Sequence record: PP400788
Direction: 5' to 3' (one strand)
Length of the DNA stretch: 64,000 nt
From: Escherichia phage FL33
In this document: piece after piece, positions 58,412 through 64,000 of the stretch
How positions within the stretch are numbered: the first letter of the stretch is position 1
Layout: each line of letters begins with the position of its first letter
The notes under the pieces: model-generated
The model's input: the letters and a program-made list of their open reading frames with translations, nothing else
What the model was told of the DNA's origin: nothing
Databases searched by the model: none
Program-made: the position numbers and the translations under genes

Positions 58412-58714
58412 CTAAAAGAAACTTCTTTCACAATTTTTTCCACTGAACCATGCGCTTACCGCTTTCTTAGTCTCAGGAGCAGTGTTATCCATAAACCATT
58501 CAAAGGCAGCCTTTTTATGATTCTGGAGGGCTTCTCGGGCTTTAATCTGCTCACGGTCTATTAACACTAACATATGAGCCTTTCTTGTCACCATGGGCTT
58601 CTTATGATTTTTTGAATACTCCCAGTCATTTGTCCATCGCATTGTCGTTGCAAATTGAAATACAGCTTCTTTAATCTTAGTTTCGTAAATTTCACGAGCC
58701 TTTGAGTATAACAT
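58412..58714 (-). CDS. Hypothetical protein (100 aa)
   Basis: ATG at 58714 with GGAGG RBS. Confidence 0.5.
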   Translation of the reverse strand: MLYSKAREIYETKIKEAVFQFATTMRWTNDWEYSKNHKKPMVTRKAHMLVLIDREQIKAREALQNHKKAAFEWFMDNTAPETKKAVSAWFSGKNCERSFF

Positions 58715-58796
58715 CACTACCTCCATTTACCAGTTTAATTCTAGTCATCTTTTTAATGGCAGTCCATATAATCTATTTCTGAACTGCCTTTTTGTC

Positions 58797-59516
58797 TTAG
58801 GATTCTTCTAAATGTCTTTTCTGAAAAGTTGATACCATACTACGATACGGTTCATTTGGATATCCATGTTTTATAGCTTCCTTTGTAAATTTTCTCCATC
58901 CACATTTAGTTTCTTTCCAAAGCTCGAATAATTCATCTTCATACTGCCATATAGTTAAATGAGAACGCTTTGCAGCTTTAATTCCATTAATATGCTTTTC
59001 TTTTACTACAGGATTGCTTAGTTTCTTTTTAATAATATTACTAACTTTTCTAACAAAAACTGGGTCCTTATATCGTTGCGAAGTTTTTATTGAAGTGTTT
59101 AATTTAGCTTCCGGCGTGGATGTGACCTCTTTCATCTTTTTCTTCATATGCTGTATATGATTAGGATTTTTCCATAAATTTATAGAATGCTTTTTGCATT
59201 TTATCCTAGTTTCATCTGCAACCTTTCCTCCTTCACCCCCGTATGACAGGTTAACGCAGTTTTTTCCATATTTCAATTTACCTGCCATGATATATAATAT
59301 TTCGGCTTGTACCATTTTATCATAATTATCAAAAACTTCTAAAACCGTTTTTGATAATATATGGTCATTTGACACTTTTACACGTTCTATATAATTTCCA
59401 CTACCAACATACGAATCATTGATGTTATTAGTTATATGTCGACCATAATAGTATTTCTTAATACCTGTCTTTAAATTTAATATTTCAGTTTTATAGATAG
59501 TAAAATATTTTTTCAT
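58797..59516 (-). CDS. Putative GIY-YIG-like homing endonuclease (candidate mobile gene)
   Basis: 239 aa; N-terminal KKYYYGRH..SYVGSG resembles GIY-x10-YIG; Lys-rich C-terminal half; start overlaps upstream ATPase stop. Confidence 0.45.
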   Translation of the reverse strand: MKKYFTIYKTEILNLKTGIKKYYYGRHITNNINDSYVGSGNYIERVKVSNDHILSKTVLEVFDNYDKMVQAEILYIMAGKLKYGKNCVNLSYGGEGGKVADETRIKCKKHSINLWKNPNHIQHMKKKMKEVTSTPEAKLNTSIKTSQRYKDPVFVRKVSNIIKKKLSNPVVKEKHINGIKAAKRSHLTIWQYEDELFELWKETKCGWRKFTKEAIKHGYPNEPYRSMVSTFQKRHLEES

Positions 59517-60481
59517 TTTAATAATACCGTTTCAGCAATTTCTTCCCAACCGTTTTTGTCGGTCATAATAAAGTCAGCAAGATAAAGAGCAGTACGCAGT
59601 GAAACATTGCGTAAACGATTAACATTAACTTTCATCCATGATAATGCTTTATAAGTTTCTTCATCAGAAAGACCGCGCTTTTGCATCATGTCAGTTGAAA
59701 GAATAACATCTTCAACCCTGACCATAATTTCTTCATTGGTGTGAACACCCAAATCCAAATAAACTGAGCGGGACACTAATGCTTGTAAGTGTGGGGCAAG
59801 TTTAGTACCACGGTCTAATTCGCGGTCAATATCAACGTTTGTGATAAAAACAATCGTTCCTTTAAATTCAAACTCACGGTCAATGCCTTTTTCTTCTAAG
59901 TAAGAAGATGCAGTGCTCCAGCAGACTTTACGGGTCTCTCCAGTGTCCAGAGCGGCTTTTAGAAGATTAAGAATATCCATATCAGAGAAAACATCCACAT
60001 CATCAATCAAAAGGACAGAATTCTCTTCACGATTATTCCAAAGCTGCTCATAAAGACCAATACCAGAGATTTTACCATTAATGCTTTTATATTCAATGTA
60101 TCCAATATCATTTGCTTTATTTAAAGCTTTATCTAAAGAATACGTTTTACCAATACCTGCTGCGCCAGAGATAATTAATGAACGAATATTTCCATTAATA
60201 ATACCATTCGTCATCATTCCCATAACATTAAATCTTTTATTAATGCGGGTTTTCATATCTTCATATGATTCTTTAACTTCTTCAACTTTTACACCATCAT
60301 ATGAAATATCTGATTTGTAAACCCAAACACCACGACGTTTACCGTCAATTTCAACAAAAACTTTACCATCTCCTTGTGCATCTACCGGAGCATTATCTGG
60401 GAACCATTCGCCTAAGAGCTCAAAAGTTCCAGAGATTTCTTTACCGAAGTAGATACCCTTATTGATAGTTACAGTTTTCAT
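59513..60481 (-). CDS. P-loop NTPase (AAA-like ATPase), function unknown
   Basis: 322 aa from ATG at 60481; Walker A GAAGIGKT, Walker B VLLIDDVD; own promoter upstream. Confidence 0.7.
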   Translation of the reverse strand: MKTVTINKGIYFGKEISGTFELLGEWFPDNAPVDAQGDGKVFVEIDGKRRGVWVYKSDISYDGVKVEEVKESYEDMKTRINKRFNVMGMMTNGIINGNIRSLIISGAAGIGKTYSLDKALNKANDIGYIEYKSINGKISGIGLYEQLWNNREENSVLLIDDVDVFSDMDILNLLKAALDTGETRKVCWSTASSYLEEKGIDREFEFKGTIVFITNVDIDRELDRGTKLAPHLQALVSRSVYLDLGVHTNEEIMVRVEDVILSTDMMQKRGLSDEETYKALSWMKVNVNRLRNVSLRTALYLADFIMTDKNGWEEIAETVLLK

Positions 60482-60515
60482 TTTATTCTCCAAATCCGTA
60501 TCAGTTGATAGTTGT

Positions 60516-60544
60516 ATAGTACCATAAAGCTTTATGCTTGTAAA
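60516..60544 (-). promoter_or_regulatory. Early sigma70-type promoter (repeated element)
   Basis: TTTACA-17bp-TACTAT. Confidence 0.6.
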
Positions 60545-60552
60545 CAGTTTTG

Positions 60553-60595
60553 TGAAAAATTTTTGAAATAAAAAAAAGGGAGCCCGAAGGCTCCC
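60553..60595 (-). terminator. Intrinsic terminator after nucleotidyltransferase gene
   Basis: GGGAGCC-UUCG-GGCUCCC hairpin followed by U8 on minus transcript. Confidence 0.7.
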
Positions 60596-60598
60596 TTA

Positions 60599-61612
60599 TC
60601 ATTTATAATAACTTCGGTGGTTTTCAAGATAAACCCTCTCAAGGAAGTCATCCCAGAAACTCATGTCTACTTTTTGCTGCATACCGTTCTTAGAAGCTTC
60701 AATGGATGCTGCTTCTACTTGATCGACCACATCTTCCAAAAACTCTTGGACAGTTTTAAATGGATGTTTACCCAACTTCACGTCGAGAATAAATGGAGCA
60801 TCTTGGAGTGGATAAACCAAATCACCAGTTTTGTAAATTTCCAATAGTTGGAGTCCACCACGGCAAGCATGACTAAGAGCTTTCCAGTCAATGCCCTCAT
60901 TCGCTTCAGCCTTACGAGCACGTTCGCCGTATTCAGCATCTAATTTGTTCAGTGACTGCTTAAGCTCAATAAGAGAAAGCGTTGTCTGATATTTACGACC
61001 CAACACAGTATAGAACGTTTGCGGGCCTGTTTTCTCGTGATTATGGAACACCCATTCACAGAACTCGTTCTCTGGAAGACGATGCTTAATATCTTCAACT
61101 TTAGTGCGACGCTGCTTAATGGAACCGTCTTCTTGATAATCAACCCACTGATCGGGGATTTGATTAACTACTTTCAATACATCACGCAATGCGGCCAAAC
61201 GAGAACCCTTAACACCATATTTAGAAGCTTGCTTGCGAACATATCCTAAATAGGATTTCATGTTAGTTGTATAAAAACGAGAACGATTGTCTTGAATAAA
61301 CTTCCATACATCAGGCAAATCTGATTTAACTACCAGTTCAGGTGGAGTATGGAGCATATCCAATGCTACGGTTTCACCATCTGCTGCTAATTTAAAGAAA
61401 TATTTAAGACTGTATAGTTCATGGTCAATATCATCTTTAGTGTTTTTAGATGATGTGTTGTTAGTGTTTTTACTCATATGCTCTTTAACATTTCCGATAA
61501 GAATATCGCGAGCAGGAGGAACAAAGATTTCTTTAAAATCTACATCAGATTCTGGAGTAGAAGTTCCATAAAGATGACTACCAAAATAGCTTTTCATTAC
61601 TGTTTTCATCAT
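60599..61612 (-). CDS. Pol-beta-superfamily nucleotidyltransferase, function unknown
   Basis: 337 aa; N-terminal FGSHLYGTSTPESDVDF (GS-x9-SDxD) NTase signature with later ALDMLH acidic strand; ATG overlaps stop of upstream membrane-protein gene. Confidence 0.7.
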   Translation of the reverse strand: MMKTVMKSYFGSHLYGTSTPESDVDFKEIFVPPARDILIGNVKEHMSKNTNNTSSKNTKDDIDHELYSLKYFFKLAADGETVALDMLHTPPELVVKSDLPDVWKFIQDNRSRFYTTNMKSYLGYVRKQASKYGVKGSRLAALRDVLKVVNQIPDQWVDYQEDGSIKQRRTKVEDIKHRLPENEFCEWVFHNHEKTGPQTFYTVLGRKYQTTLSLIELKQSLNKLDAEYGERARKAEANEGIDWKALSHACRGGLQLLEIYKTGDLVYPLQDAPFILDVKLGKHPFKTVQEFLEDVVDQVEAASIEASKNGMQQKVDMSFWDDFLERVYLENHRSYYK

Positions 61613-62070
61613 TCAGCCTTATATTCAATAACAGGACATACTTTAGCTTTACGAGCTTTTAAAAATTCGACGATAATAGATTTCTTGGGTTGAATAGGAG
61701 GTAAACCTTTATACGCCCTATCAATATTTTCTACATGTAAAGCATAATCCTTTTTCCATTTATAATCTTTATATTTTTCATGCAGTTGTGCAGGAATAAC
61801 ACATGAACCGATAATAAGTAAAACAAGCAAAATAGCAAGTATAAATGCTGATGGAATAAGAGTCCATAAACTACCAAAAATAAGCCATTTCTGTATGATT
61901 TCTGCACAGATGATAGTTAGACCTGCGAGTATAGTACATCCGAAAAAAGAAACGAAAAATGTAGGAATAACAATAGACCAAAAATACGCGCACAGTGTCT
62001 TAGGTCGTTTCCATTCATCATTAAACATTTTGAATAATTTATAATGCCAAGAGTTTTCATTAATAATCAT
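61609..62070 (-). CDS. Multi-pass membrane protein (153 aa)
   Basis: Two long hydrophobic stretches and a basic C-terminal tail; stop overlaps NTase start (ATGATGA). Confidence 0.6.
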   Translation of the reverse strand: MIINENSWHYKLFKMFNDEWKRPKTLCAYFWSIVIPTFFVSFFGCTILAGLTIICAEIIQKWLIFGSLWTLIPSAFILAILLVLLIIGSCVIPAQLHEKYKDYKWKKDYALHVENIDRAYKGLPPIQPKKSIIVEFLKARKAKVCPVIEYKAE

Positions 62071-62072
62071 AA

Positions 62073-62594
62073 TTATCCTTTCATTGAAGGTGTAACAGTT
62101 GTTAAATACTTAATCATAGCTTCAGCTTCTGATTTTGATAATGAAATTTCTCCATTGTTTTGACGAATAGAAATAAAATCCGGATGACGGTCACCACCAG
62201 CTTTTAAAACACACATATAAGTATCAGTTTCATCTTCAATATTTGAAATGATTGAAGCAGTTCCACATGAATGTGGTTTTTGATAAATCAATACAGCTTT
62301 TCTTCCACCGTTTGACTGTTCATAAACTTTTAACACATCAAACAAATCACTTCTTTTATCAATAGCTAAGATGTTGTTTTCATCTTCAATGTTAAATCCT
62401 TCGGATACTTCATAAAGCGTTACCCATAAATCACCTATATCGATAGTAGCATTTTCCTTTCCATGACTTTCAAGAGCATGACAAATTTTCTTGATTTCAT
62501 CATAACTCATTTTAATAATATCATCTCCTTGAATAAGGAAGATGTCATTTTTAAATTCAACACGAATTAAACCGCTTCCACTTGAAATAAACAT
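62073..62594 (-). CDS. Hypothetical protein (173 aa), paralogous to upstream neighbour
   Basis: C-terminus EAEAMIKYLTTVTPSMKG resembles KDEAIALKTYLDSVIPTMISK of the adjacent ORF. Confidence 0.6.
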   Translation of the reverse strand: MFISSGSGLIRVEFKNDIFLIQGDDIIKMSYDEIKKICHALESHGKENATIDIGDLWVTLYEVSEGFNIEDENNILAIDKRSDLFDVLKVYEQSNGGRKAVLIYQKPHSCGTASIISNIEDETDTYMCVLKAGGDRHPDFISIRQNNGEISLSKSEAEAMIKYLTTVTPSMKG

Positions 62595-62600
62595 ATTTCC

Positions 62601-63167
62601 TCACTTTGAAATCATAGTTGGAATGACAGAATCAAGATAAGTCTTTAGCGCAATAGCTTCGTCTTTTGTAAATGTAACAATATGTGCTCGAAAATCGTCA
62701 ATTTGGCGAATAGTTAAGACATCTCCTTCTTCATAACATTTTGATACATTTAAAACAGTTTCATCATTCTGATCGCACTGATCGCAAGCGTTAGTAATAA
62801 TAGCATTGCAATTTTTGAGCCATTTTAAACTATGTTTTCTTTCATTAGAATAATAAAAATATTTAATCTTAGCTATAAAACTATCCCAATGGATAACTGA
62901 TAAACACATTGACTCACTTTTAATATTAAATCCTGGGCATGAAGAATAAAAATGAATTTTGTGCTCATCATTGATGCTTACTATTTTATCAGTATAAGGA
63001 TATTCAATTTGGATTAAATGAACGATTTCACTAGGCGTAAAATATAGCATATCGTCTTCTTGCGTCAAACGATACATGTTATTTACTTTTTCTATAGCCA
63101 ATTCACCAAAAAGCGGACTAACTTCTAATACTAATCGTTTCATATTGATTCTCTTCGACTCACTCAC
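62601..63167 (-). CDS. Hypothetical protein (188 aa), paralogous to downstream neighbour
   Basis: GTG start 6 nt after AAGGAG; Cys-rich middle (CDQCDQ); shared C-terminal motif. Confidence 0.55.
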   Translation of the reverse strand: MSESKRINMKRLVLEVSPLFGELAIEKVNNMYRLTQEDDMLYFTPSEIVHLIQIEYPYTDKIVSINDEHKIHFYSSCPGFNIKSESMCLSVIHWDSFIAKIKYFYYSNERKHSLKWLKNCNAIITNACDQCDQNDETVLNVSKCYEEGDVLTIRQIDDFRAHIVTFTKDEAIALKTYLDSVIPTMISK

Positions 63168-63302
63168 AATTACATACTCCTTTGAATAATATCAATAATG
63201 TTGTTCACCAGATTATAAGTAAACATTGGGTAATTATATTGAATCATCACATACACAACAAACAAAACTTTCATTCTCTTCTCCTTGACCGTTGACAAGA
63301 TT

Positions 63303-63331
63303 ACTATACCATAACCTTGTCAACTTGTAAA
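63303..63331 (-). promoter_or_regulatory. Early sigma70-type promoter
   Basis: TTTACA-17bp-TATAGT on minus strand. Confidence 0.55.
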
Positions 63332-63497
63332 CCATTAAATGACGTTTTCAATAAAATTCTGAAGCTTTGTGTGAGCATCAACCATAATTTTCATTTCTTC
63401 CTTTGCGAAAGCTGTACCTCTTTCCCGAGCAGAATACTCATAGTCAGAAACTGCATTAGCATATTCTTCAATTAGCTTCATTAAAAACATTTGCTTT

Positions 63498-63728
63498 TCA
63501 GTTTTCATTATTCCACCTAATCATTTCAAGATATTGAACTAACTTAGCTTTGGATTTATCCAAATCCTTTTTAGCTGCTTCTATACCGTCGTATGAATAT
63601 CCTTCACAGTGCTCAACTGCCAATTGATATGAATCTATTTCAATATCACGTGCTAATTTAATGATTTTTTCAAACTGTTCACGTGTTAGCATACTAAACT
63701 CTCGTATTATGATCAATAATTTCATCAA
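63498..63728 (-). CDS. Hypothetical protein (76 aa)
   Basis: Co-oriented ORF; start not refined. Confidence 0.45.
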   Translation of the reverse strand: MMKLLIIIREFSMLTREQFEKIIKLARDIEIDSYQLAVEHCEGYSYDGIEAAKKDLDKSKAKLVQYLEMIRWNNEN

Positions 63729-63912
63729 GAAACATATCTAACGCTTCTAAAGCATTATCAACTTTAGCTTCAAATTCTTCAATACCTGATAAGGCAAAGT
63801 TAATGCGTTCCTCATCTGCTTTGCGAATTAAAGCTACCAATTCTTTAATTTTATCTGCTTGTTTGATACTAATCATTATTCCACCACATATGAAAGAGAA
63901 AATATTGCACAC
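63694..63912 (-). CDS. Hypothetical protein (72 aa or shorter)
   Basis: Co-oriented ORF; probable internal ATG start near 63876. Confidence 0.4.
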
Positions 63913-64000
63913 GCCATATGAGTTGCAGCTTCATCACACATACTATAGCGTTTCTTAAGAAGTTCTACAAGTTCTTCACTAGTAACTTCATCCATGTTGA

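What the first reader, a model, noticed from the sequence alone, without database searches (positions are those of the whole stretch)
60599..63167. Translationally coupled membrane-protein / nucleotidyltransferase module preceded by two paralogous genes
A 337-aa protein with a clear pol-beta-type nucleotidyltransferase signature at its extreme N-terminus (FGSHLYGTSTPESDVDF) is translationally coupled (ATGATGA) to an upstream 153-aa multi-pass membrane protein. The two genes upstream of that (173 and 188 aa) share a C-terminal motif and look like diverged paralogues. All four sit between an early promoter (63303-63331) and a strong terminator (60553-60595), so they form one early transcription unit. 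An NTase paired with a small membrane protein resembles nucleotide-signalling or toxin-like modules, but here it is phage-encoded and early-expressed. I cannot tell from sequence alone whether this is the conserved T-even nrdC-distal gene set or an accessory acquisition. No function is established for it in either case.
Basis: partly seen in the sequence, partly recalled or inferred. Interest (0 to 1): 0.65.

Follow-up and report, generated by a model that had tools for sequence, protein, structure and literature searches.

The report
T-even RNA-repair nucleotidyltransferase operon, ordinary
This is the normal early gene cluster of T4-like phages that ends in NrdC.11, a known RlaP-family enzyme thought to add missing nucleotides to damaged RNA ends. 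The small membrane protein in front of it is an unrelated, uncharacterised phage protein that phage T4 itself has lost.

Summary
All sequence observations hold: four tightly packed minus-strand ORFs, an ATGA stop/start overlap, a GS...DxD signature, a promoter-like site and a strong terminator. A fifth 34-aa ORF (mobD.2) was missed.

The window is a Tequatrovirus.
- The 337-aa protein is T4 NrdC.11 (98% identical). It belongs to Pfam RlaP (PF10127). A 2025 preprint showed that family adds 1-2 NMPs to RNA 3'-OH ends, and names T4 NrdC.11 as a member.
- Its closest bacterial relatives sit in RlaP-RlaP-Hen1-Pnkp RNA-repair operons.
- The 188-aa protein is MobD.1. The 173-aa protein is its true paralogue.
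- The 173-aa and 153-aa genes form the common Tequatrovirus allele. T4 carries the homing endonuclease mobD in exactly their place.

The membrane protein belongs to a large phage family with no Pfam model (PHROG 944; 2178 clusters; invariant Cys27 and Cys145-Pro146). That family usually occurs without any RlaP. NrdC.11 survives intact where the membrane gene is replaced (T4), frameshifted (T2) or deleted. About one gene junction in five in this window has the same kind of overlap.

The parts
63303..63331 (-). Sigma-70 / T4-early-type promoter-like site (TTTACA, 17-nt spacer, TATAGT, with TG before the -10)
   Evidence: Best-scoring site in the scan of 58500-64000 (10 of 12 matches plus TG). 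The region is almost identical in T4. Its function as an early promoter is inferred, not shown.
63291..63324 (.). Perfect 9-bp inverted repeat, GTTGACAAG ... CTTGTCAAC, bracketing the -10 element. It looks like an operator.
   Evidence: The 8-bp core pattern occurs once in the 64-kb window and in 0 of 100 shuffles. Both arms are conserved in T4. Any role is speculative.
63170..63274 (-). Small ORF, orthologue of T4 mobD.2 (about 34 aa from the ATG that follows GGAG).
   Evidence: The ORF is listed. T4 has mobD.2 at the same position.
62601..63167 (-). MobD.1 orthologue. It is 188 aa from the GTG start, or 180 aa from the internal ATG that RefSeq uses. It contains T4_y05I_N and T4_y05I_C domains.
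   Evidence: 84% identical to T4 MobD.1. Pfam PF24449 E 3.9e-39 and PF24448 E 4.2e-23. PHROG 1502.
62073..62594 (-). Diverged paralogue of MobD.1 (173 aa). It is absent from T4.
   Evidence: 26% identical, E 4e-8, to the 188-aa protein. Same two Pfam domains. It lies in the 962-bp segment that T4 replaces with mobD. A second copy was seen only in Tequatrovirus loci.
61609..62070 (-). Two-pass inner-membrane protein (153 aa) of an uncharacterised phage family (PHROG 944). Conserved motifs are N-terminal NSWHY and LCxYFW and C-terminal KAKKxKxCPxIE. It is absent from T4.
   Evidence: Hydropathy and charge. PHROG 944 E 1.7e-49. Profile search: 2178 representatives with E <= 1e-3. C27, C145 and P146 are invariant; S7, W8 and H9 are nearly invariant. 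No Pfam, NCBIfam or PADLOC hit.
60599..61612 (-). NrdC.11, an RlaP-family (PF10127) pol-beta nucleotidyltransferase (337 aa, or 336 aa from the second ATG)
   Evidence: 98% identical to T4 NrdC.11. Pfam RlaP 44.1 bits against a cut-off of 23. PHROG 388 E 4.8e-137. AlphaFold2 model with pLDDT 90.9. Catalytic residues conserved.
60576..60597 (-). Intrinsic terminator: a 9-bp G+C-rich stem with a UUCG loop, followed by a T-run
   Evidence: Terminator scan. RNA fold -17.4 kcal/mol, z -3.9, 0 of 200 shuffles as stable.

Best explanation
This is an ordinary early accessory operon of a Tequatrovirus: mobD.2, mobD.1, a mobD.1 paralogue, a PHROG-944 membrane protein and nrdC.11.

The NTase. NrdC.11 is an RlaP-family template-independent RNA 3'-end nucleotidyltransferase. 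It most likely adds one or two NMPs to the 3'-OH of broken RNA. The likely substrates are tRNA halves from which a host anticodon nuclease of the RloC type has also removed a nucleotide. After the addition, phage Pnkp and RNA ligase 1 (a 5'-phosphate ligase that needs a 3'-OH) can reseal a full-length tRNA.

The membrane protein. It is most likely a functionally separate, fast-evolving accessory protein. Its direct abutment and ATGA overlap with nrdC.11 are a derived result of gene loss and compaction in the E. coli T-even lineage. They do not mark a two-component machine.

Shown here: identity with T4 genes, family membership, conserved catalytic residues, RNA-repair gene context of the bacterial relatives, and the distribution and linkage statistics.

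Inferred: that the T4-type enzyme has the activity measured for the Pseudomonas RlaPs, that tRNA is its substrate, and that expression is early.
For: NTase identity and family:
- 98% identical to T4 NrdC.11.
- Pfam RlaP hit above the gathering score.
- G11, D23 and D25 invariant, S12 and D85 nearly invariant, over 126 homologues.
- High-confidence model (pLDDT 90.9) with an N-terminal NTase domain, a C-terminal helical domain and a terminal helix. This is the order described for the PfRlaP crystal structure (PMC12776372).

Link to RNA repair:
- Bacterial homologues at 33-37% identity lie in small ORF / RlaP / RlaP / Hen1 / Pnkp operons next to RtcB, on three contigs.
- An environmental T4-like phage has an RNA ligase three genes upstream.
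- The literature reports that RlaP adds 1-2 NMPs to RNA 3'-OH, prefers cleaved-tRNA mimics and partly restores aminoacylation of a tRNA lacking one nucleotide. It lists T4 NrdC.11 in RlaP cluster 5 (PMC12776372).
- RlaP distribution in jumbo phages mirrors that of RNA ligases (PMC7824862).

Independence of the membrane gene:
- T4 replaces it and the paralogue with mobD but keeps NrdC.11.
- T2 has it frameshifted with NrdC.11 intact.
- Locus L065 lacks the whole mobD.1-to-membrane block.
- Among 78 viral loci with an NrdC.11 homologue, 13 have the membrane gene abutting, 33 have it 0.3-1.8 kb upstream with other genes between, and 32 lack it within the 3.5 kb of upstream flank fetched.
- Among 29 viral loci and 7 genome loci found through the membrane motif, only 3 (all T4-like) carry an RlaP.
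- 18 of 94 gene junctions in the window show the same type of overlap.
Against: - No activity has been measured for any phage RlaP.
- The Pfam match covers only residues 7-135. NrdC.11-type proteins carry an extra beta-rich insert (about residues 152-212) that has no assigned role.
- The PfRlaP coordinates were not in the PDB copy, so the fold could not be compared directly.
- No RNA ligase or Pnkp gene is adjacent in this window. In T4 they are encoded elsewhere.
- The membrane gene lies upstream of nrdC.11, in the same orientation, in 46 of 78 loci spanning two subfamilies (Tevenvirinae and the Acinetobacter Twarogvirinae). Shared ancestry explains this, but it does not exclude a functional link.
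- Deleting nrdC.11 to mobD.3 leaves T4 viable (PMC9825161). Any role is therefore conditional on the host.
Confidence: 0.7

Rival explanations
1. The membrane protein and NrdC.11 form a working pair in T-even phages. The NTase product (a short oligonucleotide) could gate or regulate the membrane protein, as in Hailong HalB/HalA. The NTase could mimic HalB to counter Hailong. Or the membrane protein could recruit or regulate the NTase at the inner membrane.
For: - The 4-nt stop/start overlap is kept in every locus where the genes abut (11 of 13 called at -4; the other two differ only in start-codon calling).
- The membrane gene is upstream in the same orientation in 46 of 78 NrdC.11 loci.
- Hailong is itself an NTase plus membrane-protein pair (PMC13434031).
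- The membrane protein has a Lys-rich cytoplasmic tail with invariant Cys-Pro.
Against: - The HalB match is weak (14% identity, TM-score 0.26-0.38, E 3e-3). It ranks alongside ANT(4') and 3c18, so it reflects the generic pol-beta fold.
- The membrane profile does not hit HalA or any other solved chain beyond nonspecific transmembrane matches.
- No PADLOC hit.
- The protein is 153 aa with short tails and has nothing like HalA's cytoplasmic crown.
- The two genes are not obligate partners in either direction.
- In other genera one to four unrelated genes separate them.
- Overlaps of this kind are common in the window.
Confidence: 0.07
2. NrdC.11 is an RNA 3'-end NTase, but it is used for something other than repair. 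Examples are tailing host or phage transcripts to change their stability (host shut-off or mRNA turnover), or touching up the 3' ends of phage tRNAs.
For: - Pseudomonas RlaPs label rRNA, tRNA and single-stranded RNA, with little NTP specificity (PMC12776372).
- The gene sits in an early-type unit.
- No repair gene is adjacent in the phage.
- The authors themselves state that the repair role is unproven.
Against: - Addition stops at one or two nucleotides, and cleaved-tRNA mimics are preferred.
- The closest cellular relatives are embedded in Pnkp/Hen1 repair operons.
- RlaP co-distributes with RNA ligases in phages.
Confidence: 0.15
3. The pair is a toxin/antitoxin-like or abortive-infection-type NTase module (MNT/HEPN, AbiEii/MenT, ANT-like) or a CD-NTase signalling enzyme.
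For: - Pfam NTP_transf_2 gives 14 bits.
Against: - NTP_transf_2 is below its cut-off (14 against 21 bits).
- No CD-NTase, AbiEii or MenT family hit in Pfam, NCBIfam or PADLOC.
- RlaP is the only family above threshold.
- The gene is conserved across more than 1500 T4-like phage records as a single-copy gene.
Confidence: 0.03

Closest known systems
T4 NrdC.11 / RlaP family (Pfam PF10127, RNA ligase-associating Pol-beta; Burroughs and Aravind 2016, as cited in PMC12776372; Carruthers, Fatma and Huang 2025, PMC12776372)
   Same: 98% identical to T4 NrdC.11. Passes the RlaP gathering score. Has the GS...DxD...D catalytic set, and an NTase domain followed by a helical domain and a terminal helix. 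Bacterial relatives lie in Pnkp/Hen1/RtcB repair operons.
   Different: The NrdC.11 subgroup is about 60 residues longer than canonical RlaP (271-281 aa) because of a beta-rich insert. Only the N-terminal half matches the Pfam model. No phage member has been assayed.
Hailong HalB/HalA anti-phage system (Tan et al. 2025, as summarised in PMC13434031; PDB 9dbh, 9dbj)
   Different: 14% identity and generic fold-level similarity only. HalA has a channel plus a cytoplasmic crown, whereas this protein is a 153-aa two-helix hairpin with no detectable similarity. The pair here is not obligate and is phage-encoded. There is no evidence for poly-dA synthesis or tyrosine priming.
T4 mobD.1-mobD-nrdC.11 locus (free-standing HNH homing endonuclease inserted at nrdC.11/mobD.1; Edgell et al. 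2010, PMC2988022)
   Same: The flanks are the same: mobD.1 and the upstream genes (91% DNA identity), and nrdC.11 plus nrdC.10 (95%).
   Different: The window carries 962 bp (the 173-aa and 153-aa genes) where T4 carries 808 bp of mobD. The window has a different homing-endonuclease gene inserted downstream of nrdC.10 instead.
PHROG 944 'membrane protein' family
   Same: Full-length match, E 1.7e-49. Shares the NSWHY / LCxYFW / KxKxCPxIE motifs and a variable transmembrane core.
   Different: Nothing is known about this family's function. It has no Pfam, NCBIfam or PADLOC model.
Pfam T4_y05I_N / T4_y05I_C (PF24449 / PF24448, 'y05I-like putative transcription factor')
   Same: Both the 188-aa and the 173-aa proteins match both domains well above threshold.
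   Different: The 'transcription factor' label is only a prediction in the Pfam name. I found no paper on it.

Membership tests
RlaP (PF10127) | Profile HMM match above the curated gathering score | tested here: met
   44.1 bits against a cut-off of 23, E 2.8e-11, residues 7-135 on profile positions 23-142 of 249. Every listed homologue carries a precomputed PF10127 hit.
RlaP (PF10127) | Pol-beta catalytic set: hG[GS], DxD and a third acidic residue | tested here: met
   G11, D23 and D25 are invariant, and S12 and D85 nearly invariant, in 126 sequences. The motifs align to those of a canonical RlaP.
RlaP (PF10127) | N-terminal NTase domain, C-terminal helical domain, and a final helix packing back on the NTase domain (PfRlaP crystal structure) | tested here: inconclusive
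   The order of secondary-structure elements in the pLDDT-90.9 model fits: strands and helices 3-113, helices 214-308, final helix 317-336. PfRlaP is not in the PDB copy.
RlaP (PF10127) | Genomic association with RNA ligase or RNA repair genes | tested here: met
   Met for relatives: RlaP-RlaP-Hen1-Pnkp operons with RtcB nearby (L058, L059, L060), and an RNA ligase near the gene in a T4-like environmental phage (L057). Not met within this window's operon itself.
RlaP (PF10127) | Adds 1-2 NMPs to RNA 3'-OH, Mn2+-preferring | not testable with these tools
   Shown only for the P. fluorescens and P. aeruginosa enzymes (PMC12776372).
Hailong (HalA/HalB) | HalB-type NTase | tested here: inconclusive
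Hailong (HalA/HalB) | HalA-type membrane effector (channel plus cytoplasmic oligonucleotide-binding crown) | tested here: not met
   The profile of the membrane family finds no HalA chain in the PDB. The protein is 153 aa with two helices and short tails.
Hailong (HalA/HalB) | Obligate two-gene co-occurrence | tested here: not met
   The membrane family occurs mostly without RlaP. NrdC.11 occurs without the membrane gene in T4, T2, L065 and 31 further loci.
CD-NTase / CBASS, MNT-HEPN, AbiEii/MenT, ANT, CCA-adding enzymes | Family profile match above threshold | tested here: not met
T4_y05I (PF24449 + PF24448), MobD.1 family | Both domain HMMs above the gathering score | tested here: met
   188-aa protein: 133.7 and 81.9 bits. 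173-aa protein: 113.9 and 82.9 bits. Cut-offs are 24.9 and 27.
PHROG 944 membrane-protein family | Profile match, conserved terminal motifs and a transmembrane core | tested here: met
   E 1.7e-49. Motifs and invariant C27, C145 and P146. Two hydrophobic spans.
Class II holin | Small two-transmembrane protein with both termini in the cytoplasm and a charged C-tail, expressed late and paired with an endolysin | tested here: inconclusive
   Topology and the charged tail fit. However, the gene lies in an early-type unit, no lysis gene is adjacent in this window, and T4-type phages use holin T (established knowledge).

The most novel reading that the evidence does not exclude
In the T-even phages that still carry both genes, the PHROG-944 membrane protein and the RlaP NTase act together. 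The Cys/His-bearing cytoplasmic tails of the membrane protein could sense or bind a short oligonucleotide made by NrdC.11, or could recruit the enzyme to the membrane. That would be a phage-encoded counterpart, or a counter-measure, to Hailong-type NTase/membrane-protein systems. T4 would have hidden it from genetics by replacing the membrane gene with mobD.
Probability: 0.06. Interest if true: 0.75.

Novelty: already known. Interest (0 to 1): 0.27.

Why it matters
The NTase matters mainly as a test case. T4 is where RNA repair was discovered. NrdC.11 is the phage's RlaP, and the published hypothesis (RlaP restores nucleotides removed by 'smart' anticodon nucleases such as RloC before ligation) can be tested directly with T-even deletion mutants.

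The useful by-product of this check is practical. The laboratory phages T4 and T2 are natural knock-outs of the neighbouring membrane gene. That gene belongs to a very large phage family with invariant cysteines and no curated model or known function. Any study of that family has to use a phage like this one (FL34- or NBG2-type) rather than T4.

Tried and rejected
- Sequence and profile searches of NrdC.11, of a canonical RlaP and of the membrane family against PDB sequences found nothing useful. The PfRlaP structure is evidently not in the copy.
- PADLOC and NCBIfam gave no hits for any of the proteins.
- The AlphaFold2 model of the membrane protein was too poor (pLDDT 63) for fold search or for judging whether the Cys/His motifs come together.
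- The search for related loci with the broad membrane alignment failed because it had no conserved stretch. The narrow alignment and a degenerate DNA motif were used instead.
- Neighbour clustering around non-T4 members of the membrane family showed only lineage-specific synteny in jumbo phages and no recurrent partner.
- T4 NrdC.7 was checked as a possible paralogue of the membrane protein and rejected because it lacks the motifs.
- The soluble ORFs directly upstream of NrdC.11 homologues in Caulobacter phage Cr30 and in the bacterial operons were inspected. They are not membrane proteins, show no evident similarity to each other and have no significant Pfam hit.
- Literature searches for mobD.1 and y05I found nothing functional.
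- The T4 GenBank records carry no promoter annotation to confirm the early promoter.
Full report
**What is in the sequence**

The minus strand between 63331 and 60576 carries a compact unit.
- It starts with a promoter-like site at 63331..63303: TTTACA, a 17-nt spacer, then TATAGT preceded by TG. This is the best hit in the local scan.
- Then four ORFs follow: 188, 173, 153 and 337 aa.
- It ends with a 9-bp G+C-rich hairpin and a T-run at 60597..60576. The hairpin folds at -17.4 kcal/mol, z -3.9.

The gaps between genes are 6, 2 and -4 nt. At the last junction, GAATGATGAAA, the TGA stop overlaps the ATG start. Every descriptive statement in the finding is therefore correct.

There are two caveats. 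The promoter scan is not very specific (34 sites against 25 expected). Stop/start overlaps of this type occur at 18 of 94 same-strand junctions in this window, so translational coupling is a general feature of the genome rather than a mark of partnership.

**Identity of the genes**

The 3-kb region is 100% identical to Escherichia phage FL34 and 99.7% identical to vB_EcoM_NBG2. It matches 576 phage records in total, nearly all Tequatrovirus.
- The 337-aa protein is 98% identical to T4 NrdC.11.
- The 188-aa protein is 84% identical to T4 MobD.1.
- The 173-aa protein is a real, full-length paralogue of MobD.1 (26% identity, E 4e-8). Both proteins contain Pfam T4_y05I_N and T4_y05I_C.

A DNA comparison with T4 shows a clean cassette difference. 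Window 61614-62575 (962 bp: the paralogue plus the membrane gene) sits where T4 has 808 bp of mobD. MobD is a free-standing HNH homing endonuclease recorded as inserted between nrdC.11 and mobD.1 (PMC2988022). The mobD allele is found in only 47 records, all at least 99% identical and essentially T4 and close relatives. The window's arrangement covers at least 80% of the query in 428 records.

NrdC.11 and MobD.1 are the conserved T-even genes. The other two genes are the common allele, and the laboratory phage T4 happens to lack it.

**The nucleotidyltransferase**

Pfam places it in RlaP (PF10127) at 44.1 bits against a cut-off of 23. NTP_transf_2 is below threshold. PHROG 388 'nucleotidyltransferase' matches full-length. 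NCBIfam and PADLOC give nothing.

In an alignment of 126 homologues down to 33% identity, G11, D23 and D25 are invariant and S12 and D85 nearly invariant. These are the pol-beta GS motif and the three carboxylates. They align with the same motifs in a canonical RlaP.

AlphaFold2 gives a confident model (pLDDT 90.9). It has an N-terminal NTase domain, a beta-rich insert (about residues 152-212), a C-terminal helical domain and a final helix. Apart from the insert, this is the order described for the PfRlaP crystal structure (PMC12776372).

The PfRlaP structure is not in the PDB copy. The closest solved structures are therefore only distant:

In the viral structure library, 36 entries match at E <= 0.001, many of them annotated phage and giant-virus nucleotidyltransferases.

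**What the NTase most likely does**

Carruthers, Fatma and Huang (bioRxiv, December 2025, PMC12776372) studied the Pseudomonas RlaPs. They report that these enzymes:
- add one or two NMPs to RNA 3'-OH ends, but not to DNA or protein;
- prefer Mn2+;
- prefer the 5' half of a cleaved-tRNA mimic;
- raise the aminoacylation of a repaired tRNA that had lost one anticodon-loop nucleotide.

The authors propose RlaP as the antidote to 'smart' ribotoxins such as RloC. They explicitly place T4 NrdC.11 in RlaP cluster 5.

My own context look-ups support the repair link for the NrdC.11-like subgroup specifically.
- Bacterial proteins 33-37% identical to the window protein lie in operons of the form small ORF, RlaP, second RlaP, Hen1, Pnkp. 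RtcB is divergently transcribed nearby. This was seen on three contigs (L058, L059, L060).
- In a T4-like environmental phage, an RNA ligase gene lies three genes upstream (L057).

The product of RlaP is a 3'-OH end. That is what a 5'-phosphate ligase such as T4 Rnl1 requires, a point made in the preprint's discussion. Deletion of nrdC.11 to mobD.3 is tolerated by T4 (PMC9825161), which fits a host-conditional counter-defence role. The activity of the phage enzyme and its substrate remain inferred.

**The membrane protein**

It has two hydrophobic spans, and flanking charge predicts both termini in the cytoplasm. A low-confidence model agrees, with two long helices plus short terminal helices.

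Its conserved features are at the termini:
- NSWHY near the N-terminus;
- P-K-x-L-C-x-Y-F-W entering the first helix;
- a basic C-terminal K-A-K-K-x-K-x-C-P-x-I-E motif.

C27, C145 and P146 are invariant, and S7, W8 and H9 nearly invariant, across 69 diverse members. A small cytoplasmic metal or thiol site formed by the two tails is a reasonable guess, but it is untested.

A profile search finds 2178 representative clusters with E <= 0.001. The 150 best listed are small proteins (73-243 aa). The ten members scanned match no Pfam family (only a sub-threshold Tetraspanin hit for one), and the four scanned match no NCBIfam family. The family corresponds to PHROG 944, 'membrane protein'.

**Is it a module?**

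The linkage is real but phylogenetically structured. I examined 78 viral loci holding an NrdC.11 homologue.
- In 13 loci the membrane gene abuts it with the overlap. These are Tequatrovirus-, Mosigvirus- and Dhakavirus-type loci with NTase identity of at least 76%.
- In 33 loci it lies 0.3-1.8 kb upstream with one to four other small genes between. These are Klebsiella/Enterobacter-type loci (62-69%) and Acinetobacter-type loci (51-54%).
- In 32 loci it is absent from the 3.5 kb of upstream flank fetched. These include Aeromonas-, Vibrio- and Caulobacter-type phages.

Direct coupling is therefore a derived, compacted state.

In the other direction, I found loci through the C-terminal motif of the membrane family. 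Only 3 of 29 viral loci (all T4-like) and 0 of 7 genome loci carry an RlaP in the stretch fetched. The 7 genome loci are all MAGs, from CPR bacteria, Bacteroidota, Nitrosopumilaceae and Desulfobacterales.

NrdC.11 stays intact in three situations:
- where the membrane gene is replaced (T4);
- where it is frameshifted after about residue 34 (T2, L148);
- where it is deleted together with mobD.1 (L065).

The membrane protein also evolves much faster than the NTase. In Mosigvirus-type phages it is about 50% identical where the NTase is 79%. In Dhakavirus-type phages it is about 32% where the NTase is 82%.

**The Hailong lead**

Hailong is an NTase (HalB, which makes oligo-dA) plus a membrane channel (HalA) (PMC13434031), and HalB is the top structural hit. 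I therefore treated this as a serious rival. The evidence is against it.
- The structural match is generic.
- The membrane profile does not find HalA.
- PADLOC is silent.
- The two genes are not obligate partners.

I leave it at about 6-7%.

**Verdict**

The interpretation as a signalling or toxin-like module is not supported.

The locus is the ordinary mobD.1-to-nrdC.11 early operon of Tequatrovirus, in its majority (non-T4) allelic form, and the NTase already has a published family assignment. Two things remain open and modestly interesting. One is an experimental test of RlaP-assisted tRNA repair in a T-even phage. The other is the function of the widespread Cys-bearing membrane family, which T4 and T2 genetics could never have revealed.

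Noticed in passing
window 58797-59516 (- strand): A 239-aa homing-endonuclease gene (PHROG 314, E 5.6e-30) overlaps the nrdC.10 stop by 4 nt. It is an insertion relative to T4, where only 38 bp separate nrdC.10 from nrdC.9. Its C-terminal part resembles T4 MobD (27% identity, E 5e-6). Homing endonucleases thus flank nrdC.10-nrdC.11 on opposite sides in the two phages.
   Followed up: partly
window 63291-63324: A perfect 9-bp inverted repeat (GTTGACAAG ... CTTGTCAAC) brackets the -10 element of the operon's promoter. It is unique in the window (0 of 100 shuffles) and conserved in T4. It could be an operator. The operon encodes two 'putative transcription factor' (y05I-like) proteins.
   Followed up: partly
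window 60516-60544 (- strand) and 59513-60493: Directly after the terminator there is a second early-type promoter-like site (TTTACA-17-TACTAT with TG). It is followed by nrdC.10, an AAA/STAND-like ATPase with only sub-threshold Pfam hits. In one search, nrdC.10 lies downstream of nrdC.11 in most loci that also have the membrane gene and in only one of the 32 loci that lack it.
   Followed up: no
L148 (phage T2, PV648363) 1498-1960 and 400-1500: In this T2 record the membrane gene is frameshifted after about residue 34, so the NSWHY / LCAYFW motifs are in a different frame from the rest. The mobD.1 region upstream is broken into tiny ORFs. nrdC.11 is intact and is followed by an ADP-ribosylase gene instead of nrdC.10.
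   Followed up: partly
L069 2701-3504: In a Dhakavirus-like contig, a homing endonuclease related to both T4 MobD and the window's 239-aa endonuclease is inserted exactly between the membrane gene and nrdC.11. This junction looks like a recurrent endonuclease insertion site.
   Followed up: partly
L004 4507-5390; L052 4634-5514; L117 2212-3092: Acinetobacter-type T4-like phages carry two tandem, overlapping paralogues of the membrane gene. A conserved 85-94-aa gene (motif FFKVPVAKFIWPD) follows, and then nrdC.11.
   Followed up: partly
L076, L077, L081, L086, L092 and others, between the membrane gene and nrdC.11: Klebsiella/Enterobacter-type phages hold up to three further conserved small gene families here. 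They are a ~75-aa family, a ~180-aa family ending ...VGD.F.K....F.VLAI..., and a ~140-aa family starting MEIEIVTTKKKLS. None has an assigned function. The ~180-aa family is also the upstream neighbour of nrdC.11 in Aeromonas phage Asfd_1.
   Followed up: partly
L058 4642-5004; L059 4678-5001: In the bacterial RlaP-RlaP-Hen1-Pnkp operons, a 107-120-aa ORF with no Pfam hit precedes the NrdC.11-like RlaP and overlaps its start codon.
   Followed up: no
public annotations of the window's genes: Database names are misleading. NrdC.11 orthologues are widely labelled 'thioredoxin' (carried over from the nrdC gene name). One is labelled 'putative HNH homing endonuclease'. RefSeq calls the MobD.1 orthologue 'molybdopterin-guanine dinucleotide biosynthesis protein MobD'.
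   Followed up: no
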